Positions 1 through 37,165 of a DNA stretch of 37,307 nt are shown piece by piece (the stretch's first letter is position 1; each line of letters opens with the position of its first letter). Location of the stretch: the NCBI GenBank assembly GCA_038208905.1, contig JBBQYG010000019.1:1-37307 (forward strand), written 5' to 3'. Position numbers and translations under genes: made by a program. The notes beneath the pieces were generated by a model. That model made no database searches and was not told the DNA's origin. It saw only the letters and a list, made by a program, of their open reading frames with translations. Origin of the DNA: Candidatus Sumerlaeia bacterium (lineage in GTDB: Bacteria; Sumerlaeota; Sumerlaeia; SLMS01).

Positions 1-195
1 CTCCACCTCCCCCTCCGCATTCGTCACCTTCTCGCGAAAACGCATCTTCGATTCGTCCGCGGTGCCATACTGCTCGGAAAACTTGGCGCGGATCGACTCC
101 GCGCGCTCCCACCGCGCCAGCAAAGCAACCAACTCCTCGCCGCCGATGGCGGCGCGAGGGGGACAGTCGATGTCGATGTAGTGTCGAATTGGCAT
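1..195 (-). CDS. hypothetical protein, 5' part (runs off the window start)
   Basis: Manual translation from ATG at 195 gives MPIRHYIDIDCPPRAAIGGEELVALLARWERAESIRAKFSEQYG..., open to base 1. Same strand as the amidase gene. Confidence 0.6.
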   Translation of the reverse strand, partial: MPIRHYIDIDCPPRAAIGGEELVALLARWERAESIRAKFSEQYGTADESKMRFREKVTNAEGEVE

Positions 196-202
196 GAAAG
201 GC

Positions 203-373
203 AGGGATGAGGGATGAGGGATGCACGGCAACTACTTGGGAAGTATTGGGTGGGCAGAGTTGGACGGGGCCAGCCGGAAATTTGGCCGGGCCGTGCCCAT
301 AGGCCTGTCCCGTTCATCCCTCAGCCCTCGTACCTCATCCCTTCCGTTCACAGGCCGTTCATCCCTCGTCCCT
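203..373. repeat. intergenic heptamer repeats in inverted orientation
   Basis: AGGGATG x3 at 203-223. Complementary CATCCCT-like units at 315-342 (x4) and 360-373 (x2). Confidence 0.75.
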
Positions 374-374
374 T

Positions 375-2270
375 TCAGTATACGGGTCGGCGCGCAAAGC
401 AAAACGCCGCCGTCCAGTACGCATCGTACAGCGGGTCCTCGGGGTCGAAGCTACTGATCTGGACCTCGGGCGGCGAGGCGTGGATGAAGCGGCCGCCGCC
501 GAGGGAGAGTCCCGTGTGGGTGACGCGCGTGGTCTCGTCGATGAAGAACACAACGTCGCCCGGCTGGAGCAGGCCCTTCTGCCAGAACGTGCCGACGAGT
601 CGTCCCACGAGGACCTGCTGAAAGGCATCGCGCGGTAGTTGAACTCCCTGGGCCGCCCAGGCGACGCCCACGAGGCCGCTGCAGTCGATCCCCTGACTCG
701 TCCGCGCGCCAAAGACATAGGGCGTGCCCAGCATCCGCGCAGCGGTGTCGATGGCGGCGCGCCCGGGGCTGGAGGCCGGATGAAAACGCAGCGCCTCCAC
801 AGCCACGGAATACGACGCCGAGTTCCCCGCGCCGCGGACGGCCCTGGGGAGCGCCAACGTCACGCTGGTCCCGCCGTCCCATCCCTCCACGGGAAGCGCC
901 GCCCCGGCGGGAAGGCGGAAGTCCAGCGCCATCAGGTCCTCCCTCAGCACCGCGCGCGGGCGGCGCATCCACTCGGAGAGCTCCCCCCACGCCATGCGCC
1001 GCACGGTTTCCGACCGCACCCAGCCGATGTAGCCCTCGGGCCCATGAAGGCGTATATACGTCTTGTCGGCGTTCTCCTCCAGCAGCCACACCTCGTCGCC
1101 AAGGATGAGCTGGCTCTGCACGGTTCCGCCCTCCCGCGGGTCTCCCCAGGTCAAGGCCATCGGGATTTGCACGATGCCGTAGATCTCTTCGCCCAGCGCC
1201 GCATCGGGAAGGAGTCGGATCTCGTTCTCCACGGGGCCAACGCCCAGCGCGCGAAAGACCTCTGGCAGTGCCGCGATCAGGCGCGGGTGATTCGCCACGC
1301 CGGAGAGCTTCCATCCGCCGTCGCTCGCCGACACCTTGGCGTCCAGAAGGAAGAACGTGGAATCCGATAGCTGGAACTTCTTGAAATTTGCGATGATGGA
1401 TTGAAGCTGTCCCGCCGTCGTCGGCGGCGCCTCCTGCGACCAGAGTCGACTCGCGATTCCCGCGAAGGGATCGCTCTCTTCACGTGGGGGCACGGGAGCG
1501 GCGTCGGGGAACAGGCGCAGGCGTTCCTCGTCCAGCGCGCCACGCTGCTCCTCCCACATGCGGACAACACCATTGTAGGCGCCGATGGCTTCCTTTTCCG
1601 CGGAGTCCGGCCTCACGACCCACGCATCGAACTCGGGATTGGAGAGGAAGCCGAACTCCACCACCGCGGACGGAATATCGGAACTCGACACCAGCGGATG
1701 ATCGATCACATAGAAGCTGAAGTCCTCCTTCCAGTGAATGGTCTTCTTGACCTCCTCCTCCATGATGCCCGCAAGGGCGCTCTCCAGCGGCTGGGGCTGC
1801 CCCGCCTTGTCCGTCGGCCAGATGAGCATCATCACGCCGTCGGCGGTGCGGCGCGGCGAGCTGTTGTGGTGGAGCGAAAGGAAGAGGTGGGAACGCGTCG
1901 CCTCCGCGATAGCCGTGCGTGCGCCCAGCTCCTCCGCACGCCCGGAATTGCCGGGCGCCACCTTGCGGTCGTCGGTGCGTGTCATGTGGACCTCCGCCCC
2001 GGCATCCTTCAGGAAATGCCGCAGCAGCGACGCCACCTTCAGGTTCACGTCGCCCTCGATCACCTGCGTATTGACGCCGCGCGCGCTCCCCGAATAGCCC
2101 GGCTGGTGGGCGCTCCCGCCGTGCCCGGGGTCCAGGGTAATCACCAAACCGGCGAGCTTGTCCTTTTCGCCCTCGAAGGGAACCGGCCAATCGAGATCAA
2201 CAACATCCTGGCCGCGCACACTCGGCGCGATCAACGAGAGGGCGACTAGTATTCCTGCAATTCGGAGCAT
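375..2270 (-). CDS. secreted N-acetylmuramoyl-L-alanine amidase (Amidase_3) fused to BON-like, SH3 and NlpC/P60 peptidase domains
   Basis: Signal peptide MLRIAGILVALSL. Amidase motifs DPGHGG, EGDVNL, SLHHNS, VVEFGFLSN. SH3-like GPEGYIGWV. NlpC/P60 motifs GTPYVFG, IDCSGLV, HTG, IHAS. Start placed at ATG 2270. Confidence 0.9.
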   Translation of the reverse strand: MLRIAGILVALSLIAPSVRGQDVVDLDWPVPFEGEKDKLAGLVITLDPGHGGSAHQPGYSGSARGVNTQVIEGDVNLKVASLLRHFLKDAGAEVHMTRTDDRKVAPGNSGRAEELGARTAIAEATRSHLFLSLHHNSSPRRTADGVMMLIWPTDKAGQPQPLESALAGIMEEEVKKTIHWKEDFSFYVIDHPLVSSSDIPSAVVEFGFLSNPEFDAWVVRPDSAEKEAIGAYNGVVRMWEEQRGALDEERLRLFPDAAPVPPREESDPFAGIASRLWSQEAPPTTAGQLQSIIANFKKFQLSDSTFFLLDAKVSASDGGWKLSGVANHPRLIAALPEVFRALGVGPVENEIRLLPDAALGEEIYGIVQIPMALTWGDPREGGTVQSQLILGDEVWLLEENADKTYIRLHGPEGYIGWVRSETVRRMAWGELSEWMRRPRAVLREDLMALDFRLPAGAALPVEGWDGGTSVTLALPRAVRGAGNSASYSVAVEALRFHPASSPGRAAIDTAARMLGTPYVFGARTSQGIDCSGLVGVAWAAQGVQLPRDAFQQVLVGRLVGTFWQKGLLQPGDVVFFIDETTRVTHTGLSLGGGRFIHASPPEVQISSFDPEDPLYDAYWTAAFCFARRPVY

Positions 2271-2382
2271 CGTAGGATTCCGCAACGGAGAGTGGCCACG
2301 CGAGAATCATGACCCATGCGCGGATTGGACACAAGTGGGAGTGTATGCTATTCAGTAGAGCGTTCCTCGCGATAGCATAAGC

Positions 2383-3661
2383 TTATTCGCTGGGAAGCGG
2401 TGCCCTCGAGGGCGGGCGGGCCATACACGGCAGAATGGGGATCTCGCCCATGTGGGTATATCCGAATACACTCGCATGGGCGGAGGATGGTCGGGCTACC
2501 TTCGAGCGGCCAATAGATTCATGGGAATGCTGCAACTCTGACTCCGGCAACCGATACCTCTTCAACACAAGCGCCGCCCCATCCCACGTCCACAGTTCTC
2601 CCCGCGCCGGAAGGAGATAGGGACGCGGCCATGTCTTGTTGGCGCCCGGAATCGCAATACGCAGGCTCTCAGACCCGTCCGCCCGGGTCAAAAAAACCGC
2701 GTTCTCGGCGGGGCGCGCGATCCACCATGCGATGGAGGCCGTTGAAGTCTCGAATCAGGAAACCACCATTCGGCGCCGCCACGATGTCGGTTGGATAGTT
2801 GGGATCGCGGCCCCATCCCGCCTTCATGCTGACCAGCCGGCGAAACTCCCCGGGGTCGTCGCTGCCAAGCAGAGGGGGGAATGCCGGACCGCGCCCCTTG
2901 AGATACGGGCCCACGGGGAATGTTTGCGACCAAACGATCCCAGCGCGCGGGTCCAACAGAACCGCGGATCTCGTCTTGAGATCGATACCCATGCACAGGA
3001 GCCAAGGAGTTCCTTTCACCACAGCCGAAGGCATCAGATAGTCCAACGAATTCCCCGCCGGGGTGCGATCCTCATGGTTCTTCTGGCGATGCAGGAATTC
3101 GCCATCGCTCAGGCGGAAGGCCCAAAGCCCGGAGAACTCCTCGGTGGTGCCGCACCCCCGGATAGTGAAGAGCGCCCAGTCGCCCTCGACGCTCACATGC
3201 ATGCTCGAGACCATCGGCGCAGGATCCGTATCCATGACGTTGCACCGCGCGCGCTAGAACCGATTGTCCAGGCGTGGTGTGCCAACAGGGTTCAGAATGA
3301 TAAGCGCCAGCTCGCCGTAGTCGCTCGAATTGCCGGGACTCGGGTAGTGGGCCACTCCCTTTGTCAGGGCGTTTCCGACGATCACTCCCCCGTCGGTCAC
3401 GATGGCGTCGCGAAGCGTGACTCCCCGCTGCCACGACCACTCCACCGCGCCATCGCGGGTAAGCGTATAGACACCCGGCCCCGTCCCCTGGCGCTCGCTC
3501 GGCTCGATGTGGAGCTGGTATTCGCCGGACGGCGATGCGTAGGTCGCGGGGTTGACGAGGGGCGTCGGAAAGCGCGAGGCGGCGAGAGGGCGCGTTGCCA
3601 GCATCGACAATGCTCCCAACACAAGCATTGCCAGACAGGACCATCATGGATTCTTTGGCAT
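2383..3661 (-). pseudogene. decayed gene for a secreted, probably beta-propeller-like protein
   Basis: One frame from ATG 3661 reads MPKNP*WSCLAMLVLGALSMLA...RF*RARCNVMDTDPAP..., with in-frame stops at 3644-3646 (TGA) and 3254-3256 (TAG). It then shifts frame near 2690-2750 into ...TRADGSESLRIAIP...LWTWDGAALVLKRYRLP. Confidence 0.65.
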
Positions 3662-3802
3662 CGGAGTTTCTTCCCGCTCATCGTGACAATTCTCCCCGGG
3701 TGTGTGTTTCGCGGGCCACCAGAATTGTTTTCACGGAGGTTAGCTGATGCGACCCCGCAAACTGGCGCGAATCGTGTTGCTTGACAATTAAGGAGCTCCC
3801 GC

Positions 3803-5212
3803 ATGCCCACCACCTTCGAGAAGTCCACCCCCATCGCTGCGCCCGCCGATTTCGCCTTTGCGTGGCACGGGCGGCCCGGCGCCTTCCAGCGGCTTTCACC
3901 GCCTTGGGAGCAGTTGCGCATCGTCCGCGCGAGCGGGGGAATCCGCGACGGCGGAGAGCTGGAGTTCAAGATCCGCCTGGCGCCCGGCCTCTGGCAGCAC
4001 TGGCACGCGCGCCATTTCGGGTATGTGGAGGGCCAGCAGTTTTGTGACGAACAGGTCAGCGGCCCCTTTGCATCATGGCGTCACATCCACCGATTTGTGC
4101 CCGAGGGCGACGCGGCCTGCCGCATCGAGGACCACATCGAATACGCGCTGCCGATGGAACCGCTCAGCCGGGTCGCGCCCCGCTGCCTGGTGGAGGACAA
4201 GATTGCCGCCATGTTTGCCTATCGGTCCAACGTGGCGCAGAATGACATCGCGCGTCACTGGCGCGCACACCTGACGCCGATGCGCGTCGCCCTGACAGGG
4301 GCCAGTGGCTTGGTCGGCACCGACCTGACGGCGTTCCTGACGACGGGCGGGCATTCGGTGGTTCCGCTCGTGAGGAAGCCGACTCCCGACGGCGTGGTGT
4401 GGAATTCAACCACGGGAATCAGCGAAGCCGAGCTTGCCAAACTCGAAGGCGTCCGCGCCGTGGTGCACCTTGCGGGCGAGCCCGTCATGGGCGTGTGGAC
4501 GGAGGATAAGAAGCGCCGCATCCGCGAGAGCCGGTCCGTGGGCACCCGGGCGCTGTGCGAATCGCTGGCACGGATGAAGGAGAAGCCCGAGGTGCTGGTC
4601 TGCGCTTCCGCCGTCGGGTTCTATGGCAGTCGTGGCGCCGAGCAATTGACGGAGGAATCGACCCCGGGAAACGGCTTTCTGGCGGAGGTGGCGCGCGAGT
4701 GGGAGAATGCCTGCGAGCCCGCGCGCGCAGCGGGAATTCGGGTGGTGAACCTGCGCATTGGGATCGTGCTTTCCCCGCGCGGCGGAGCGCTGGCGGCGAT
4801 GCGCCTTCCGTTTACCTTGGGGCTTGGCGGTCGGCTGGGCTCCGGCACGCAGTACATGAGCTGGATCACCGCCGACGACCTGGTGGGCCTGATCCATCAC
4901 GCCATCGCGACCCCCGCCATGTCGGGGCCCGTGAACGCGGGCTCGCCCAACCCGGCCACCAATGCGGAGTTCACCGGCGCCCTCTCCAGCGCGCTGGGCA
5001 GCTTCGTGGGCATGCCCGCTCCGGCGTTTGTCCTGCGCGCGGCGCCCGGCGGCATGGGCGATGAATTCTTCCTGACCTCCGCGCGCATGATCCCCGCGCG
5101 GGCGCTGGCCAACGGGTTCGCCTTTGCGCATACCGATCTCGAAGCAGCTTTTCGCCTAATACTAGGCCGCAAGCCCACCAAGGGTGCGCGCATGGCGAAC
5201 ACGGCAAGCTAA
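3803..5212 (+). CDS. SRPBCC domain fused to a TIGR01777-family (YfcH-like) NAD-dependent epimerase/oxidoreductase
   Basis: N-terminal FAWHGRPGAFQRLSPPW and DEQVSGPFASWRHIHRF. C-terminal TGASGLVG, VHLAGE, ASAVGFYG, LRIGIVLS, GSGTQYMSWI. RBS AAGGAG at 3790. Confidence 0.9.
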   Translation: MPTTFEKSTPIAAPADFAFAWHGRPGAFQRLSPPWEQLRIVRASGGIRDGGELEFKIRLAPGLWQHWHARHFGYVEGQQFCDEQVSGPFASWRHIHRFVPEGDAACRIEDHIEYALPMEPLSRVAPRCLVEDKIAAMFAYRSNVAQNDIARHWRAHLTPMRVALTGASGLVGTDLTAFLTTGGHSVVPLVRKPTPDGVVWNSTTGISEAELAKLEGVRAVVHLAGEPVMGVWTEDKKRRIRESRSVGTRALCESLARMKEKPEVLVCASAVGFYGSRGAEQLTEESTPGNGFLAEVAREWENACEPARAAGIRVVNLRIGIVLSPRGGALAAMRLPFTLGLGGRLGSGTQYMSWITADDLVGLIHHAIATPAMSGPVNAGSPNPATNAEFTGALSSALGSFVGMPAPAFVLRAAPGGMGDEFFLTSARMIPARALANGFAFAHTDLEAAFRLILGRKPTKGARMANTAS

Positions 5213-17095: not shown

Positions 17096-18052
17096 ATGAG
17101 CCGAATCGCCACCATCGAGGGCGTGGACCTCCACCTGGCCCATCCCGATACCATCGAGCTGAAGTGGATCGGCAACGACCGCGTCAGGGAGCAGCTTCTG
17201 GCGTCGTGGCTGGTGATCGCCCCGGGGGACCTTCCGCTGAACCCGCGCCTGATCGGCAAGCCCGGCGTGGGAAAAACGACGCTGGCATACGCCGTGGCGC
17301 GCTCCTTGGTGGAGAACGTGTATATCATGCAGTGCACCATGGACACCCGGCCAGAGGACCTGATCGTGACGCCGGTCATCGCGGGAGAGGGCCGCATCGC
17401 CTATCATGCGTCGCCGCTCGTTTCGGCGATGATCGCCGGCGGCGTTTGCGTGCTGGACGAGGGGAACCGCATGTCGGAGAAGAGCTGGGCCTCCCTCGCC
17501 CCGCTCCTCGACCGCCGCCGCTATGTTGAGTCCATCGTCGCCGGCCTCAAGATCCCCGCCCATCCCGATTTCCGCGTCTGCGTCACGATGAACGACGACG
17601 CCTCTACCTACGAGCTTCCCGAGTACATCGCCTCGCGCCTCCAGCCCCAGATCGAGGTGACGTTTCCCGACCGCGACGAGGAGATCGAGATTCTGCGCTT
17701 CAACGTCCCCTTCTCGGAAGAGACGCTGCTCGCCTATGTGGCCGACTTCCTCCAGAAGGCCCACTCGGTGGACCTCCCCTTCACCAGCCGCGATGGCGTG
17801 AACATCCTGCGCTTTGCGCTCAAGCTCGGCGCGCTGCGCAAGGAGCCCCCCGCCGGATACCTCAGCGACGCCATCGAGGCCGTCCTCGGCAAGGACGGCG
17901 TCGAGTTCCTGGACACCGGCGTGCCTTCCGACCGGCTGCGCGGCGCATCGCGCGGCATGGATGAGGACGAGGACCGCGACGAGCTGGATATCGAATCGCT
18001 CGACGACCTGTTCGAGATGGAGGACGAGGACGAGGATGACGACGAGCGTTAA
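17096..18052 (+). CDS. MoxR/CbbQ-like AAA+ ATPase with acidic C-terminal tail
   Basis: Walker A GKPGVGKT, Walker B VCVLDEGNR, VTMN sensor, ASRL arginine finger, D/E-rich tail. Confidence 0.88.
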   Translation: MSRIATIEGVDLHLAHPDTIELKWIGNDRVREQLLASWLVIAPGDLPLNPRLIGKPGVGKTTLAYAVARSLVENVYIMQCTMDTRPEDLIVTPVIAGEGRIAYHASPLVSAMIAGGVCVLDEGNRMSEKSWASLAPLLDRRRYVESIVAGLKIPAHPDFRVCVTMNDDASTYELPEYIASRLQPQIEVTFPDRDEEIEILRFNVPFSEETLLAYVADFLQKAHSVDLPFTSRDGVNILRFALKLGALRKEPPAGYLSDAIEAVLGKDGVEFLDTGVPSDRLRGASRGMDEDEDRDELDIESLDDLFEMEDEDEDDDER

Positions 18053-20288
18053 GGGTAGCGTGGGCGTCTTGCCCGCGCCCCGCCGCCCCACTTGGCGCGG
18101 GCGAGGCGCCCACGCTACTCTTTCGGCCATTCTGGCTCTCGCGCTCTGCGCCTGTGGCGAAAGCCCGGACAAGGACGAGGCCCCCTACGTCGGCCCCGCG
18201 ACCGGCGCGCTGGGCAGCGAGGAGAAACTCGCCGCGGAGGTGGACGCAATCCTTGCCGCGTCGCTGGCACAGAGCCGCGAATCAACCCATCGCATCGCCG
18301 GCCTGGAGGGAGCGGGGCTCGAAATTCCCGCGCGGGAACCAATCCTTGCCCCGATTCCTCCGCTCCCCGATGCGGGCCCCATCGCGCCGCTGGGCCCGCG
18401 CGAAATGCCGCTCGGCGAGACGATCACCACGCTGCCGCGCAATCCCCACGCGCTGGCGCTGACAAACGCCGGGCACGCGATCTACTCCGACGATTTGGGC
18501 ATCTTTCTGCAGGGCGACTCCGGCGAAGCGAAGGCGATCTCGCCGTTCGCCGCAGGACGCCTAGCCCTCGATGCGAAGGGCGCGCGGCTCCTGGCACAGC
18601 GCGAGGACAAGGTCCTGATTTTCTCCGGAGACAACTTCGCTCAATCGACTACGATCGCGGAGCACCCGCCGGGCGCGGCGAGCTGGGACACCCGGGAAGG
18701 GCAACTCCTCTTTGCGAGGGAGCGCATCGAGTACTCCGCCAGCGTCAAGGACCGCATCGATCTGGATATCTATCTATACGACCTTGCCTCCAGTCGCGAG
18801 CGCGAGGCCGGATGGGCGCCCTTTGGCCGCTATGCCGCGCTGGGGACGCTTCCCGCCGTCGGGGTCCTGTGGGGGATCTTTCCCCAGCCCCATCAGGTGG
18901 ACCCGGTTCCCGCGCGGCTCTATCGCCTGGACGATGGAACGCCGTTGGGTCCGCTGACGTCGCAATCCGGCGGCGCCGACATCCAGCCCGCCGCCGGGGC
19001 CAACGGCCACTTCCTGTGGATTCGCACCTATCGCCGCGAGAGCAACACCGGGCGCGCGATGTGGAAGCTGATCCGCGCGGAGGACGGCCCGGAACTCCAG
19101 CTAACCGACGCGCCCACCTGGCATGTGGCAATGTCCCCCTCTGGCGAGTGGGGCGCCACCGTCACCGCGGAGGATGGCGGCTTCGCGCTGCGCCGATTCC
19201 GCGCCGGGGACATCCCCGCCCAGCATCAACCCGCTGCGCGCCGCGCCGCCGCGTGGAACGCGGAGGTCGAGCGCGCCCGCCAGGTGGTCGGCGATTTGGT
19301 GCTCACGCTAGAGAAGCGCCCCCTTGGCGCGGCGCTTGAGGAGGCCGACTTCGCGCCCACGCTCGACCGCGTGCCCGCCGCGGACGATTTCGCCGCGATG
19401 GCGGCGGCGCTGCGCGCGGCAATGGCCAAGCACTATCAGGTGAATGACGCCGATCCGCGCGTGTTCCTGCGGCGCATCGATCTGTGGCTCGACGACGCGG
19501 CACCCTACCTGAAGGAGCACCCCGCGCTGATCCTCGCTCTTGGTGGCGCGATGGCCGACGCGCTCCCGGCGAATCGCGGCTGGTCGGCGGAGACGTTCAC
19601 GAAGGCCCTTAGCCAGGACGTGGCGGGCGAAACATGGCGTCGCAGCCTGGAGTTCACCCTGGTCATGCCCATGGGCGCCGCGCGGGAGCGCATCGCATCG
19701 GGGCTCTCGCTCTCCGCGACCGTGGCCGAGATCGCTGCGCGCGGGAAGGCTCCGATCCATCTGGTGGAGAACTTGCGCGCGGAGACCGGCGAGAGCCTGA
19801 TCCCGAAGGAGTGGAAGGACGCGGGCCTGCCGGCAAGCGTCGCGGACCTCACCGCGATCAGGCCGGCGATGGAGAAGCTGGACGTCGCCAACGACGCGCT
19901 CAACGTGGTGGCGCTCTCGATCGCGTCGAGCCAGAAAAGCCCGGCGGGAAGCGAACTGGCGATCTGGACGGCGCTGCGCCTGGCGCGCAACAATCCCGCC
20001 GACGCGGAGGCCCTGACGCTGCTGGGCGACACGCTGAAGGACAACTTCTATACGAGGGCAGCCGCAGCGGTCTTTCGCGCCGCCGCGCTGCTGAATCCCG
20101 AGGACCCCTACCTGCGCGTGCAGAGCGGCGACGCCCTGCTGGCGTTGAGCGATTTTGACGGCGCCCGCGCGGAGTTTGCCATCGCACGCAGCGTTGACAC
20201 CGGCGGCAGCTATGCCGACCAACTTGATCAGCGCGACACGCTTGTCGGCCAGATGGAAAAGTCAGAGAAGGAGGGGGCGACCCCATGA
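18036..20288 (+). CDS. large lipoprotein with a beta-propeller-like region and C-terminal TPR repeats
   Basis: Lipobox LALALCA-C-GES; TPR-like NPADAEALTLLGDTL and LNPEDPYLRVQSGDALL. Start at ATG 18036 overlaps the ATPase stop; alternatives are GTG 18060 and TTG 18069. Confidence 0.75.
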   Translation: MTTSVKGSVGVLPAPRRPTWRGRGAHATLSAILALALCACGESPDKDEAPYVGPATGALGSEEKLAAEVDAILAASLAQSRESTHRIAGLEGAGLEIPAREPILAPIPPLPDAGPIAPLGPREMPLGETITTLPRNPHALALTNAGHAIYSDDLGIFLQGDSGEAKAISPFAAGRLALDAKGARLLAQREDKVLIFSGDNFAQSTTIAEHPPGAASWDTREGQLLFARERIEYSASVKDRIDLDIYLYDLASSREREAGWAPFGRYAALGTLPAVGVLWGIFPQPHQVDPVPARLYRLDDGTPLGPLTSQSGGADIQPAAGANGHFLWIRTYRRESNTGRAMWKLIRAEDGPELQLTDAPTWHVAMSPSGEWGATVTAEDGGFALRRFRAGDIPAQHQPAARRAAAWNAEVERARQVVGDLVLTLEKRPLGAALEEADFAPTLDRVPAADDFAAMAAALRAAMAKHYQVNDADPRVFLRRIDLWLDDAAPYLKEHPALILALGGAMADALPANRGWSAETFTKALSQDVAGETWRRSLEFTLVMPMGAARERIASGLSLSATVAEIAARGKAPIHLVENLRAETGESLIPKEWKDAGLPASVADLTAIRPAMEKLDVANDALNVVALSIASSQKSPAGSELAIWTALRLARNNPADAEALTLLGDTLKDNFYTRAAAAVFRAAALLNPEDPYLRVQSGDALLALSDFDGARAEFAIARSVDTGGSYADQLDQRDTLVGQMEKSEKEGATP
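18055..18118. repeat. GTAG-type REP doublet (REPIN) copy 1, inside a CDS
   Basis: GTAGCGTGGGCGTCTTGCCCGCGCC (18055-18079) and its inverted copy (18094-18118) are 23/25 complementary. Confidence 0.85.
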
Positions 20289-20665
20289 TTAGGGGCATTG
20301 GAATGGACGTGGTGGAGATCCAGCGATTCGAGGAGGCGCTCGAGCGACACGGCGAGCGCCTGCGCAACCGCCTGTTCACTCGGGCCGAGCAGGAATACTG
20401 CGACGCGCACCCCAACCCCGGGACGAGCTATGCCGCGCGCTTTGCCGCCAAGGAGGCCGTGGCCAAGGCCCTGGGAACGGGGATCGCCGGCGGCATCCAG
20501 TGGATCGACATCGAGGTGGTCCGCGACAGCGCGGGGCGCCCGTCGATCATCCTCCACCGCCGCGCGCGGGTGGTCTTCGCCGAACTTCGCGGCCAGCGTG
20601 TTTGGCTGAGCATGACCCACTCGCGCCTGGTCGCCGCGGCCAACGCGGTGATCGAGGGCACGTGA
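20285..20665 (+). CDS. acpS: holo-[acyl-carrier-protein] synthase
   Basis: GIGMDVVEIQR, RLFTRAE, ARFAAKEAVAKALGTG, LSMTHS. Confidence 0.96.
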   Translation: MIRGIGMDVVEIQRFEEALERHGERLRNRLFTRAEQEYCDAHPNPGTSYAARFAAKEAVAKALGTGIAGGIQWIDIEVVRDSAGRPSIILHRRARVVFAELRGQRVWLSMTHSRLVAAANAVIEGT

Positions 20666-21765
20666 GCGGGACGACCCCAGAGGATGCTGTCGCATTCCAA
20701 GGGAGCGTGGGCGTCTCGCCCGCGCGTTGCCCTTGTGGCGGCGGGGCATGGGCAGGGTGCCCATGCCGCTATTGGCGCGCCCTTGTATGTATATTTGTAT
20801 ATGCGATTGCGCTATGGGGTCCGGCGGTGGCCCAGGATGCGCCGTCCGAAGACGACCTCGCGCGCGAGCGCCTGCGGCAGCTTCGCGATTTCCGCCAGTC
20901 CCAGTATCCCGGATTCGTCTCCGAAGAGGCGGTGGCGCCGACGCCCGCCCCCGAGCCGTCGGTCCCTCCGACGCCCGCCCCCCAGCTCCTGGTGGACGAC
21001 ACGCCCTCCACCACGACGTGGTTCCAGACGCGCGAACGCCTCGAACCCGGGATGGAGGAAATCCGCATGCTGATGATTTCCCGCGCCACATCGCAGGAAA
21101 TCGCGGCTCAGGAGGAGAAGTTCATCGGAGACCTGGACGCGGTCGTCCGCATGGCGAATTTCCAGGCGCCCGGCCAGGCGGGCGGCCTGGGGGCAATTCG
21201 CTCTCGCATTGTCCGCCAGCTGGGCTACCTGATCGAGGACTACGCCGCGGGCGAGTGGCGAAAGCTGGAAACCACCGAGGAACTCCTGCGCCGCTCGATG
21301 AAGGAGGCCCAGTATCTCCTCTTCCGCTCCGACCTCGACCGCGGGCTCGCTTCGCCCGCCGCCACGGTGCTACCCGCCGACTGGGACACGAGCCGCTTTG
21401 GCAGTCCCCGCTTCGCGGCGCAGATAGCCGACTGGGACGGCGCGCGCCTGCTGGGTTCCTATCGCGGGCGCCACGCCCAGATCGAATCCGCGCTCCGCCG
21501 CAATCGCCAATTCCACGATCCCATCGCCGCGCGGGAGATGGCCGAACTCGCCCGCCAGCTCGCCACCCGCGTCAACGAAGTCCCCGTCACCTCCGCCACC
21601 GCCTTCCGCGACGCGGCCCTGCGCCTGGACGTGCTCGCCGAGAATCTCGACGACCAGCTCGCGGCCCAGAACACCCTCTACGCCCGCCGCCAGCTCCGCC
21701 TCATGGGCCACGCCATCGACGATGTGGAAGCGTATCTTGCGCTGCGGCGGCAGAACGCGGATTAA
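20662..21765 (+). CDS. secreted alpha-helical hypothetical protein
   Basis: GTGA overlap with the acpS stop; hydrophobic ALVCIFVYAIALWGPAVA-QD signal; Pro-rich linker followed by a helical body. Confidence 0.65.
   Translation: MSGTTPEDAVAFQGSVGVSPARCPCGGGAWAGCPCRYWRALVCIFVYAIALWGPAVAQDAPSEDDLARERLRQLRDFRQSQYPGFVSEEAVAPTPAPEPSVPPTPAPQLLVDDTPSTTTWFQTRERLEPGMEEIRMLMISRATSQEIAAQEEKFIGDLDAVVRMANFQAPGQAGGLGAIRSRIVRQLGYLIEDYAAGEWRKLETTEELLRRSMKEAQYLLFRSDLDRGLASPAATVLPADWDTSRFGSPRFAAQIADWDGARLLGSYRGRHAQIESALRRNRQFHDPIAAREMAELARQLATRVNEVPVTSATAFRDAALRLDVLAENLDDQLAAQNTLYARRQLRLMGHAIDDVEAYLALRRQNAD
20702..20769. repeat. REP doublet copy 2 (diverged), inside a CDS
   Basis: GGAGCGTGGGCGTCTCGCCCGCG ... 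CATGGGCAGGGTGCCCATGCCGC. Left flank CTGTCGCATTCCAA matches CTGTCGTATTCCAA of copy 3. Confidence 0.75.
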
Positions 21766-36852: not shown

Positions 36853-37000
36853 GTTTCGTGTCTCCTTTGGTGACCCGCTCTGGAATGACTTACGATGGAG
36901 GGAGGAGGTTTATTCAACGGCGGGGAAAAGCGGGGAAAGCCGGAAACGGCGGGAAAGGCGGAACGTAGAGTGACTCTCGAAAGTCCTGTCGTATTCCAAC

Positions 37001-37062
37001 GTAGCTTGGGCGTCTCGCCCGAGCCCCGTCGCCCCAACACGCGGGCAAGATGCCCACGATAC
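37001..37062. repeat. GTAG-type REP doublet (REPIN) copy 3, intergenic
   Basis: GTAGCTTGGGCGTCTCGCCCGAG ... CGCGGGCAAGATGCCCACGATAC. Loop CCCCGYCGCCCCA and right flank ACTCTTT are shared with copy 1. Confidence 0.85.
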
Positions 37063-37165
37063 TCTTTTACGGCGTCCTCCATCGCGACAAGACTTTCGAA
37101 CCGCTCTCACGCAAAGCGACTTCTGTAAACTCCTCAGCCCTACGGTAGTGTAACCCAACCCCTGC

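What the first reader, a model, noticed from the sequence alone, without database searches (positions are those of the whole stretch)
18036..18160. REPIN translated as the basic n-region of a lipoprotein signal peptide
Seen: a 64-bp GTAG-type REP doublet (18055-18118) lies between the start ATG (18036) and the lipobox and reads GSVGVLPAPRRPTWRGRGAHAT. There is no in-frame ATG/GTG/TTG between the element and the lipobox Cys, so the palindrome must be at least partly translated, and it supplies most of the positive charge. Established: REP/REPINs are normally extragenic and mobilised by RAYT transposases; in-frame palindromic insertions are known from Rickettsia (RPE). Inference: cleaved signal peptides may be a safe landing site, and the 25-bp mRNA stem may tune translational coupling to the ATPase.
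Basis: partly seen in the sequence, partly recalled or inferred. Interest (0 to 1): 0.72.

Follow-up and report, generated by a model that had tools for sequence, protein, structure and literature searches.

The report
Mobile hairpin translated inside signal peptide
A small mobile DNA hairpin (a REP doublet) sits between the start codon and the membrane-targeting core of a conserved lipoprotein gene in an uncultured Sumerlaeota bacterium, so it is almost certainly read as protein; this is a clear new example of a habit already described for such repeats.

Summary
Window 18055-18118 is a GTAG-headed REP doublet (REPIN). Its family has about 145 units in 89 clusters in this Candidatus Sumerlaeota MAG, which also encodes a REP-flanked RAYT. 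The element begins 2 nt after the stop of an AAA_5 ATPase gene and ends at the hydrophobic core and lipobox of a 750-aa lipoprotein.

The orthologues I could read have short signal peptides, most starting within -17 to +14 nt of the ATPase stop. No ATG, GTG or TTG lies between the element and the lipobox Cys. ATG 18036 has a well-spaced Shine-Dalgarno-like GAGG. G003 has the same ATG-at-minus-14 overlap but no repeat.

Three other strains carry the identical insert, and the gene shows purifying selection (11 synonymous, 8 non-synonymous changes). Translation as a 22-residue, Arg-rich n-region is therefore well supported but inferred; there are no RNA or protein data.

Three further loci in this genome look the same, one at window 20662-20830. 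My crude enrichment test was not significant (p = 0.09). Codogenic and N-terminal GTAG REPs are in print (Di Nocera 2013), and this scan has noted REP doublets in signal peptides in other genomes.

In passing: four related genomes carry a RAYT gene nested in frame inside leucyl-tRNA synthetase.

The parts
17096..18052 (+). Upstream AAA_5 (MoxR-like) ATPase gene of 318 aa with an acidic tail; stop TAA at 18050-18052
   Evidence: ORF. Pfam AAA_5, E 2.2e-19. 6 synonymous and 0 non-synonymous differences to a second strain.
18020..18035 (+). Three Shine-Dalgarno-like GAGG motifs (18020, 18026, 18032) inside the ATPase tail; the one at 18026 starts 10 nt before the ATG
   Evidence: Sequence. In this genome GAGG and GGAG peak at -15 to -10 from predicted starts.
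18036..18038 (+). Most likely start codon (ATG) of the lipoprotein gene; it overlaps the ATPase gene by 17 nt
   Evidence: G003 has the same ATG-at-minus-14 overlap with the ATPase stop.
18051..18123 (+). REPIN including its short conserved flanks, i.e. the extent of homology to other copies
   Evidence: 47 hits begin at 18051; 54 end at 18118 and 15 end at 18123. Full-length alignments to major-clade REPINs are 81-83% identical.
18055..18079 (+). 5' REP unit (GTAG head, inner 7-bp palindrome), read as S-V-G-V-L-P-A-P
   Evidence: 1 mismatch to the family consensus.
18060..18071 (+). Alternative in-frame starts inside the 5' arm (GTG 18060, TTG 18069), both buried in the stem
   Evidence: Their upstream Shine-Dalgarno-like motifs are weak or badly spaced (my reading).
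18080..18093 (+). 14-nt loop, homologous to the loop of other family members
18094..18118 (-). 3' REP unit in inverted orientation, read on the + strand as R-G-R-G-A-H-A-T
18120..18155 (+). Hydrophobic core LSAILALAL and lipobox L-C-A-C; the conserved Cys40 codon is 18153-18155
   Evidence: The Cys aligns with the lipobox Cys of orthologues, e.g. L020 ...LVTACGES.
18036..20288 (+). Lipoprotein gene (750 aa, no Pfam family)
   Evidence: Found in 21 of 41 related genomes, G000 included. 11 synonymous and 8 non-synonymous differences between strains, P = 0.003.
20662..20830 (+). Second case in the window. GTG 20662 forms a GTGA overlap with the upstream stop. It is followed by a degenerate REPIN (REP unit 20702-20726) and then the signal-peptide core WRALVCIFVYAIALWGPAVA/QD. 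The only in-frame starts are GTG 20662 and GTG 20707, the latter inside the REP.
   Evidence: The second strain differs by a 3-nt indel inside the element and by two synonymous changes in the hydrophobic core.
37001..37062 (+). Ordinary intergenic copy of the major REPIN clade, for comparison

Best explanation
A REPIN has landed in the tight junction of a two-gene operon (AAA_5 ATPase, then lipoprotein). A REPIN is an inverted doublet of GTAG-headed REP units, the kind of non-autonomous element moved by RAYT transposases. It sits directly after the ATPase stop codon and a few codons after the lipoprotein's start.

The lipoprotein is still made. Translation most likely starts at ATG 18036, which overlaps the ATPase gene by 17 nt and has a Shine-Dalgarno-like GAGG at -10. 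It then reads through the whole hairpin. The element adds about 22 residues (GSVGVLPAPRRPTWRGRGAHAT, four Arg) to the n-region of the signal peptide. The n-region is cut off on export, so the extra residues cost the mature protein nothing.

Shown: the element belongs to a repeat family; a RAYT is present; no downstream start exists; orthologues keep a signal peptide; the junction is tight in relatives; the insert is fixed in four strains; the gene is under purifying selection.

Inferred: that translation reads through the element; which start codon is used; that the pre-insertion N-terminus was roughly MTTSVK-LSAILALALCAC; and that the upstream ribosome helps to open the 25-29 bp stem (translational coupling).
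For: (1) The element is a genuine family member. The RAYT on C219 scores 81.4 bits on NF047646 (cut-off 80) and has REPs on both sides.

(2) 21 of 41 related genomes, G000 included, have the lipoprotein. I could read the junction in 10 orthologous loci. In 6 the start lies -17 to +14 nt from the ATPase stop (L005 +14, L007 +6, L013 +12, L015 -1, L016 -1, L011 -14/-17). L004, L012 and L020 are further away (+39 to +453). Orthologue n-regions are mostly about 6-15 residues, though L010 and L012 may have longer ones. G000 has 28.

(3) There is no ATG, GTG or TTG from the end of the element to GTG 18240, beyond the lipobox.

(4) The genome uses Shine-Dalgarno sites: 36% of predicted starts against 14% for a control region. 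A canonical anti-Shine-Dalgarno 16S tail motif is present. GAGG sits at -10 from ATG 18036.

(5) The identical element is bridged by a metagenome contig 0.8% diverged from the window (22 mismatches in 2732 nt, no gap) and by contigs from two other runs (X1 with 3 differences and X2 with 10, both with 0 gaps and no joints).

(6) Between strains the gene has 11 synonymous and 8 non-synonymous changes, where 74% of sites are non-synonymous (binomial P = 0.0032). The two X2 changes just after the Cys (18158, 18173) are synonymous by my reading.

(7) The same genome has parallel cases. C74 is a TPR lipoprotein, MMPIQ-GSAGVSPAP-ALRAVLLLAAVLLFAGC, with GGAG at -14. C60 is an esterase, MNNS-[REPIN]-LVCLILAIFALL..., with AAGGAGGAG upstream of its ATG. 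The third is window 20662-20830.

(8) REP sequences of this family are read through inside an essential gene, LeuRS, in G000 and four relatives.
Against: There is no direct evidence of translation or of the start site. The organism is uncultured.

The stem starts 15 nt after ATG 18036 and should hinder initiation there. GTG 18060 and TTG 18069 are buried in the stem.

An open frame through the element is weak evidence on its own. 5 of the 6 frames of a REP unit lack stops, and the genome is 64.5% G+C.

The lipobox has an unusual Cys at -2, and no signal-peptide predictor was available.

No allele lacking the element was found, so the pre-insertion state is reconstructed. The nearest orthologues are only 30-37% identical.

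There are no polymorphisms inside 18036-18157 to test coding constraint on the element itself.

Gene calls for the genome-wide counts are my own crude codon-score calls.
Confidence: 0.75

Rival explanations
1. Only part of the REPIN is translated. Initiation is at GTG 18060 or TTG 18069 inside the 5' arm, perhaps by ribosomes terminating at TAA 18050-18052 and re-initiating a few bases downstream. ATG 18036 is then a chance in-frame codon in the ATPase tail.
For: Both codons are in frame. A ribosome stopping at 18050-18052 would have opened the base of the stem (inference). AAGG precedes GTG 18060. At the second window locus a GTG at the equivalent REP position (20707) is one of only two possible starts.
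Against: Both codons are paired in a stem of -71 kcal/mol. Their Shine-Dalgarno-like motifs are weak or outside the -15 to -10 peak, whereas ATG 18036 has GAGG at -10. G003 uses an ATG at the same -14 position relative to the ATPase stop. In C74 and C60 a well-placed Shine-Dalgarno motif plus ATG lies upstream of the REP.
Confidence: 0.15
2. The REPIN is untranslated. It is an ordinary extragenic repeat between two genes, and the lipoprotein starts at a non-canonical codon just downstream (ATT 18129 or CTG 18132).
For: 70 of 89 REP clusters are intergenic in my crude gene calls. REPs typically lie just after stop codons (PMC3733652, passages). That paper warns that many N-terminal 'intragenic' REPs may be extragenic.
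Against: Starting at 18129 or 18132 leaves only MLALALCAC before the lipid-modified Cys. That has no n-region and a core of about 6 residues, whereas the orthologue cores I could read are about 10 residues or longer. No Shine-Dalgarno-like motif precedes these codons (my reading).
Confidence: 0.04
3. The insertion disabled export or expression. The gene is a decaying or re-purposed (cytoplasmic) remnant, and the open frame through the element is an accident of high G+C.
For: Open frames are cheap at 64.5% G+C. There are no expression data.
Against: The 750-codon frame is intact and shows fewer non-synonymous changes than expected between strains that all carry the element (P = 0.0032). It aligns over nearly its whole length with orthologues. 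Synonymous-only changes lie between the lipobox and the next possible start (my reading).
Confidence: 0.05
4. Assembly artefact: a repeat copy was wrongly joined into this locus of the MAG.
For: The genome is a 301-contig MAG, and contigs of two runs stop near the element.
Against: Three independent assemblies bridge the element with unique sequence on both sides and no gap.
Confidence: 0.01

Closest known systems
REPIN-RAYT systems: REP doublets mobilised by REP-associated tyrosine transposases (Bertels & Rainey 2011, PMC3116915; seen in search listing and abstract only)
   Same: A GTAG-headed imperfect palindrome of about 25 nt. Head-outward inverted doublets. Tens to hundreds of copies, including a near-identical 'master' clade of roughly 40 copies by my count. 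A RAYT gene flanked by family REPs. Mostly intergenic.
   Different: The host is Candidatus Sumerlaeota, not a proteobacterium. This copy and at least three others lie inside reading frames. The RAYT on C219 is flanked by a sister sub-family (GTAGCATGGGCG...), not by the exact sequence found here. A second Y1 transposase of IS200 type (C12) also sits next to REPs. Mobility itself was not tested.
Intragenic ('codogenic') GTAG/CGTC REPs surveyed by Di Nocera et al. 2013 (PMC3733652; abstract and passages read; supplementary table of intragenic REPs not opened)
   Same: REP singles and dimers encoding 20-30 residues inside conserved genes. More cases lie at the N-terminus than at the C-terminus. 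tRNA synthetases are among the decorated proteins. G-T pairing in the stems is taken as a sign of transcription.
   Different: That paper treats most N-terminal cases as possibly extragenic because downstream starts exist. Here no downstream start exists and the element abuts a required signal-peptide core. In the passages I read the paper does not single out signal peptides. My searches found no paper that does.
Rickettsia palindromic elements (RPE) inserted in frame in protein genes (recalled: Ogata et al. 2000; cited as refs 13, 14 and 49 in the passages of PMC3733652 read)
   Same: A palindromic mobile repeat tolerated in frame within functional genes, some at N-termini, with expression shown in Rickettsia.
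   Different: RPE-1 elements are longer and have no known RAYT partner. They sit on protein surfaces and are kept in the mature protein. Here the insert lies in a segment that is removed by signal peptidase II.

Membership tests
GTAG-type REP / REPIN | 5' GTAG head followed by a short imperfect palindrome | tested here: met
   Unit GTAG-C-GTGGGCG-TCT-(T/C)GCCCGC-GCC. The head is strongly conserved across 145 units: G 143, T 140, A 126, G 106.
GTAG-type REP / REPIN | Many dispersed copies, far above chance | tested here: met
   82, 98 and 145-147 hits at <=3, <=4 and <=5 mismatches. Seven control patterns gave 0 at <=4 and 0-3 at <=5. The genome search' own reversed-pattern control gave 0.
GTAG-type REP / REPIN | Two units in inverted, head-outward orientation forming a hairpin | tested here: met
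   44 of 86 clusters are simple +/- doublets. This one has a 14-nt loop, and the loop is also homologous to other copies.
GTAG-type REP / REPIN | A cognate RAYT gene in the genome, flanked by the REPs | tested here: met
   The C219 protein scores 81.4 bits on NF047646 (cut-off 80) and has REPs at C219 187-207, 834-854 and 943-963. Caveat: the flanking REPs belong to a sister sub-family, 2-5 mismatches from the unit searched.
GTAG-type REP / REPIN | Mobilisation by the RAYT | not testable with these tools
   The only indirect sign is the clade of near-identical copies.
Codogenic (in-frame, translated) REP/RPE insertion | The element lies in the reading frame of a conserved, functional gene with the frame kept open | tested here: met
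Codogenic (in-frame, translated) REP/RPE insertion | Orthologues lack the insert | tested here: met
   None of the <=3-mismatch REP hits in relatives (G009 8, G003 5, G022 1, G033 1) lies on the contig that holds the orthologous locus. Most orthologue n-regions I could read are short. No close allele (>37% identity) without the insert was available.
Codogenic (in-frame, translated) REP/RPE insertion | The encoded residues are actually made | not testable with these tools
   No transcript or protein data exist for this organism in the tools available.
Bacterial lipoprotein (SPase II) signal peptide | Positive n-region, hydrophobic core, and a lipobox ending in Cys (pattern recalled: [LVI][ASTVI][GAS]C) | tested here: inconclusive
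   n-region +5. Core LSAILALAL (Kyte-Doolittle 11-residue mean 2.6). Lipobox L-C-A-C, with an unusual Cys at -2. The Cys aligns with orthologue lipobox Cys. No dedicated predictor was available.
Intrinsic terminator between the two genes | G+C-rich stem followed by a U-run | tested here: not met
   0 terminator-like sites in 17600-18500. Only TCTTT follows the stem.

The most novel reading that the evidence does not exclude
In Sumerlaeota the REP-RAYT system lives largely inside reading frames.

RAYT genes without an obvious start or stop of their own are nested in frame, between two REP-derived segments, at one and the same site of the essential leucyl-tRNA synthetase. This is seen in four genomes from three families. 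Other RAYT copies are nested in other genes. The REP arms there are read in the same frames as here (5' arm GSxGVSPx, 3' arm RGRxAxAT).

On this reading, REPINs such as the one at 18055 are frame-compatible derivatives. They persist where extra residues are harmless: signal-peptide n-regions at tight operon junctions, loops of membrane proteins, and a variable linker of LeuRS. Nesting in an essential frame would protect the transposase gene from nonsense and frameshift decay.

This would be an intein-like lifestyle without splicing, and I found no paper describing it.
Probability: 0.3. Interest if true: 0.8.

Novelty: new member of a known kind. Interest (0 to 1): 0.42.

Why it matters
It gives an unusually clean case that a REPIN can be carried inside a coding region. 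No rescue start codon lies downstream, the signal peptide is needed, the junction is tight in relatives, and selection persists. The segment it occupies is one the cell discards.

This bears on how such repeats persist at low cost. It also bears on annotation: gene callers tend to clip or mis-start these genes, as my own crude caller did at 20662 and on C60. And it extends REPIN-RAYT systems to a barely studied phylum.

The larger value may be the lead it opened. RAYT genes are nested in frame in leucyl-tRNA synthetase across several Sumerlaeota genera. If they are expressed, this would be a new way for a domesticated transposase to be kept.

Tried and rejected
- The search for homologous proteins with the lipoprotein returned nothing at E <= 1e-20. 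This is uninformative, because candidates were capped.
- No RNA holder was listed among the sequencing runs, so expression could not be examined.
- In runs X4 and X6 no contig bridges the element; the pieces stop at or near the repeat. This says nothing either way.
- No promoter-like or terminator-like site lies in 17600-18500.
- Rfam gave only a sub-threshold generic hairpin match (MIR1437, 34.6 bits against a gathering score of 168).
- The DNA alignment of the G000 and G003 junctions is too diverged to place the insertion point base by base. I rely on the shared architecture only.
- The signal-peptide enrichment test was not significant.
- The stop-codon distance survey found 24 of 145 REP heads with a well-scoring ORF ending within 90 nt. 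Four of these use the TAG inside the GTAG head. The window locus fell below my score threshold, so I did not use the survey further.
- I considered a Tat-type signal because of the RR pair. It was rejected because the residues after RR do not fit the recalled twin-arginine consensus. This was not tested with a tool.
- I first read the REP-like 25-mer in G000 LeuRS as an insertion. Alignment to solved LeuRS shows it replaces a variable linker and adds no net length.
- The frame preference of translated REP units is only a trend. Head-first units are 8 against 2. Tail-first units are 4 against 4, and two of those are probably chance 5-mismatch hits.
- The RAYT tree is unresolved within the main clade. 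It therefore cannot tell single from multiple entries into LeuRS.
Full report
**What is there.** Window 18051-18122 holds an inverted repeat with 29-nt arms, 90% complementarity and a 14-nt loop. As RNA the region folds at -71.2 kcal/mol, against -45.7 +/- 3.7 for 200 dinucleotide-preserving shuffles, none of which folds as well. Each 25-nt core (18055-18079, and 18094-18118 inverted) starts with GTAG and contains its own 7-bp palindrome. The two differences between the arms give G-U pairs on the + strand (read). With only two positions, this is no evidence for strand-specific selection.

**It is a member of a repeat family.** A 25-nt pattern built from the arms finds 68, 82, 98, 145 and 181 places in the 4.24-Mb, 301-contig, 64.5% G+C genome at <=2 to <=6 mismatches. 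A reversed pattern and six shuffled patterns give 0 hits at <=4 mismatches and 0-3 at <=5.
- The units form 86 clusters when linked at 150 nt, or 89 when linked at 60 nt. Of the 86, 44 are simple head-outward doublets, mostly with 12-nt loops and some with about 40-nt loops.
- Roughly 40 doublets, by my count, are near-identical and share conserved flanks.
- The window copy is a diverged member. Its homology to other copies, loop included, runs from about 18051 to about 18123.
- The window holds two more copies: an ordinary intergenic one at 37001-37062 and a degenerate one at 20702 onward.

**A transposase partner exists.** PF01797 finds two Y1 transposase genes.
- The one on C219 scores 81.4 bits on NCBIfam NF047646 (REP-associated tyrosine transposase, cut-off 80). 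It has REPs of a sister sub-family on both sides.
- The one on C12 is IS200-type (NF033573, 69 bits, cut-off 55) and lies about 200 nt from a REP pair.
- Among 40 relatives the pattern (<=3 mismatches) occurs in only four genomes, with 8, 5, 1 and 1 hits, against 82 in G000.
- Relatives of the ATPase are Candidatus Sumerlaeota MAGs.

**The genes around it.** ORF 17096-18052 is an AAA_5 ATPase. The 750-codon frame from ATG 18036 has no Pfam family but has relatives in 21 of 41 related genomes, G000 included. That covers 10 of 10 genomes from its own family, at 25-37% identity over nearly the full length.
- The orthologues whose N-terminus I could read begin with a signal peptide ending in a lipobox Cys, for example MRLPIRLIFFIVLMVCTITIVSC, MLPRGCRTLALCLAVFILTLVSSC and MLYLLLAVFLVTACGES.
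- Where the ATPase gene is on the same locus, it lies directly upstream.
- I could read the junction in 10 orthologous loci. In 6 of them the lipoprotein start lies -17 to +14 nt from the ATPase stop. Three lie further away (+39 to +453).
- G003 (L011) has ATG codons at -14 and -17, overlapping the ATPase end. This is the same architecture as ATG 18036, which is also at -14.

**Why the element must be read.** From ATG 18036 the frame reads MTTSVK-GSVGVLPAPRRPTWRGRGAHAT-LSAILALALCACGES.
- The hydrophobic core starts at the first codon after the element.
- The next canonical start after the element is GTG 18240, which is 28 codons past the lipobox Cys.
- Weak non-canonical codons at 18129 (ATT) and 18132 (CTG) would leave only MLALALCAC, which is too short to be a signal peptide by comparison with the orthologues I could read.
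- A functional exported protein therefore needs a start at TTG 18069, GTG 18060 or ATG 18036.
- The genome uses Shine-Dalgarno sites. GGAG and GAGG peak at -15 to -10. A motif is present at 36% of well-scoring predicted starts against 14% for a control region inside genes. One canonical anti-Shine-Dalgarno 16S tail motif is present.
- ATG 18036 has GAGG starting at -10. The two internal codons have only weak or badly spaced motifs and are paired in the stem.
- Removing 18054-18119 (66 nt, 22 codons) would leave MTTSVK-LSAILALALCAC and keep the ATPase stop. This would be a typical short lipoprotein leader. It is a reconstruction, not an observation, and the true boundaries are uncertain by a few bases.

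**The gene is alive with the element in place.** Two contigs of one metagenome match the window at 99.2% identity: 22 mismatches in 2732 nt, and 28 mismatches plus one 3-nt gap in 3683 nt. They carry the identical element.
- In the lipoprotein gene the strains differ at 11 synonymous and 8 non-synonymous sites, where 74% of sites are non-synonymous (binomial P = 0.0032).
- The ATPase gene has 6 synonymous and 0 non-synonymous differences.
- Contigs from two further runs bridge the element without a gap or joint. X1 covers 17501-18348 with 3 differences. X2 covers 17500-18430 with 10 differences.
- The two X2 differences just after the Cys (18158, 18173) are synonymous by my reading.
- No strain differs inside 18036-18157, so constraint on the element's own codons cannot be judged.

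**Parallels in the same genome.** I used a codon log-odds score trained on long ORFs and crude gene calls (3170 genes, 86% coding). Of 89 clusters, 70 are intergenic, 4 lie in the first 150 nt of a gene, 10 are internal, 1 is at a 3' end and 4 touch an edge. Three further loci look like the window case.
- Window 20662-20830. The next gene's signal peptide (WRALVCIFVYAIALWGPAVA/QD) follows a degenerate REPIN. The only in-frame starts are GTG 20662, which forms a GTGA overlap with the upstream stop, and GTG 20707 inside the REP. The second strain has a 3-nt indel inside the element and two synonymous changes in the core.
- C74. A TPR lipoprotein reads MMPIQ-GSAGVSPAP-ALRAVLLLAAVLLFAGC, with GGAG at -14 from its ATG. 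The upstream gene ends in the TAG of the REP head.
- C60. A PF00756 esterase reads MNNS-[65-nt REPIN]-LVCLILAIFALLTPTLSRA/AEA, with AAGGAGGAG upstream of its ATG.
- My labels for the upstream genes at these loci (acpS-like, Obg-like, gpsA-like) are recalled from their sequences and were not tested.

**Enrichment is not shown.** 12 of 24 REP-adjacent predicted starts have a hydrophobic N-terminal segment, against 1040 of 2986 other genes (one-sided Fisher p = 0.09). The caller mis-started at least two REP-adjacent genes, which I did not correct for the test. REP flanks abut gene ends more often than gene starts (57 against 36 flanks), as is usual for REPs.

**What it is not.** There is no terminator-like or promoter-like site in 17600-18500. 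There is no Rfam family above threshold. It is not an assembly artefact, because three independent assemblies bridge it.

**Comparison with what is known.** The element meets the sequence-level criteria of a GTAG REP/REPIN with a RAYT; mobility is untestable here.
- Di Nocera et al. 2013 (PMC3733652; abstract and passages read) already describe GTAG and CGTC REPs inside genes in several species. The inserts encode 20-30 residues. More lie at N-termini than at C-termini, and tRNA synthetases are among the hosts. The authors caution that many N-terminal cases may be extragenic.
- The present case removes that caveat for one locus and places the insert in a cleaved leader.
- My searches found no paper linking REPs or RPEs to signal peptides. 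Subscription journals are not covered, and I did not open that paper's supplementary table.
- This scan has noted REP doublets in signal peptides before, on other DNA from Acidobacteriota, Verrucomicrobiota and Omnitrophota. Those notes are unchecked by me. They agree with this reading and suggest the habit is widespread.

**A lead outside the finding.** The 4-mismatch REP unit at G000:C53 5859-5883 lies inside leucyl-tRNA synthetase and is read as RGAGVSPAE. It replaces a variable linker of the editing domain without adding net length.
- In G003 the same site carries, in one 1082-codon frame, a REP, a RAYT homologue and an inverted REP. The RAYT scores 70 bits on NF047646 over residues 416-514, just under the cut-off of 80. 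G000 LeuRS aligns to both sides, at 79% and 70% identity, around a 207-residue insert.
- G016, G023 and the contig-truncated G015 have the same arrangement at the same site. These four genomes come from three families.
- All 41 genomes show one LeuRS locus.
- G014 and G018 are same-genus relatives of G016 and G023, and they lack the insert. Eight insert-free relatives have an ordinary linker with no REP-like sequence at <=6 mismatches.
- The nested copies keep the HVH and Y-x-x-x-N-P motifs and show no ATG near their N-termini (the meaning of the motifs is recalled).
- Other copies sit in frame in a methylase-like ORF (G040) and after a U32-peptidase-like ORF (G000 C219). Those two labels are recalled and untested.
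- I found no paper pairing RAYT with LeuRS.
- In these nested cassettes the REP arms are read in the same frames as in the window element. Across G000 the preference is only a trend.

**Verdict.** The core interpretation is well supported but inferred. The idea is a new member of a kind already in print and already seen by this scan. The most novel thread is the in-frame nesting of the RAYT itself.

Noticed in passing
window 20662-20830: A second translated REP(IN) in the same window. The signal peptide of the gene after the acpS-like ORF can only start at GTG 20662 (a GTGA overlap with the upstream stop) or at GTG 20707 inside the REP. A second strain differs by a 3-nt in-frame indel (20737-20739) inside the element.
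   Followed up: partly
L123 (G003:C29:119500-126000) 1224-4472 minus strand; also L126 (G016), L128 (G023), L125 (G015): A RAYT homologue flanked by REP-derived segments is nested in frame inside leucyl-tRNA synthetase, at one and the same site of the editing domain. It is seen in four genomes from three Sumerlaeota families. Same-genus relatives lack it. No paper was found pairing RAYT with LeuRS.
   Followed up: partly
L105 (G000:C53:3500-8500) 1408-4044; REP unit at G000:C53 5859-5883: G000's own LeuRS carries a single REP-derived 25-mer (4 mismatches), read as RGAGVSPAE. It sits exactly where relatives carry the nested RAYT, and it replaces the normal linker.
   Followed up: partly
L127 (G000:C219:1-2293), L131 (G040:C127:5727-9311): Other RAYT copies also lie in long open frames continuous with host ORFs. 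In G000 the RAYT follows a U32-peptidase-like ORF. In G040 it sits inside a DUF1156/methylase-like ORF. Both host labels are recalled and not tested.
   Followed up: no
L106 (G000:C74:12800-14600) 458-1105 minus strand; L107 (G000:C60:1-2600) 2-1078 minus strand: Two more exported proteins have a REP or REPIN between a Shine-Dalgarno-preceded ATG and the hydrophobic core: a TPR lipoprotein and a PF00756 esterase. In C74 the upstream gene ends in the TAG of the REP head.
   Followed up: partly
G000:C5 42673-42697, C25 8060-8084, C43 16449-16473, C111 6652-6676, C148 6042-6066 (loci L108-L112): REP units lie inside long open frames of polytopic membrane proteins. Two of these have PMT or PMT_2 hits. 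It is not resolved whether they are loop insertions or two genes fused by an open frame.
   Followed up: partly
L001 (G000:C12:7124-10459) 1411-1863 minus strand: A second Y1 transposase, of IS200 type (NF033573, 69 bits), lies about 200 nt from a tandem pair of major-clade REP units. The family may therefore have two candidate mobilisers.
   Followed up: no
genome-wide; e.g. window 36970-37075: Roughly 40 near-identical REPINs share conserved flanks well beyond the REP cores. Several copies share at least 30 more bases on one side. The active element is therefore larger than the doublet.
   Followed up: no
L118 (G009:C179:900-2150), L116, L117: G009 carries tandem arrays of a related long REPIN: GTGG-headed units about 115 nt apart, repeating every 225 nt or so.
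   Followed up: no
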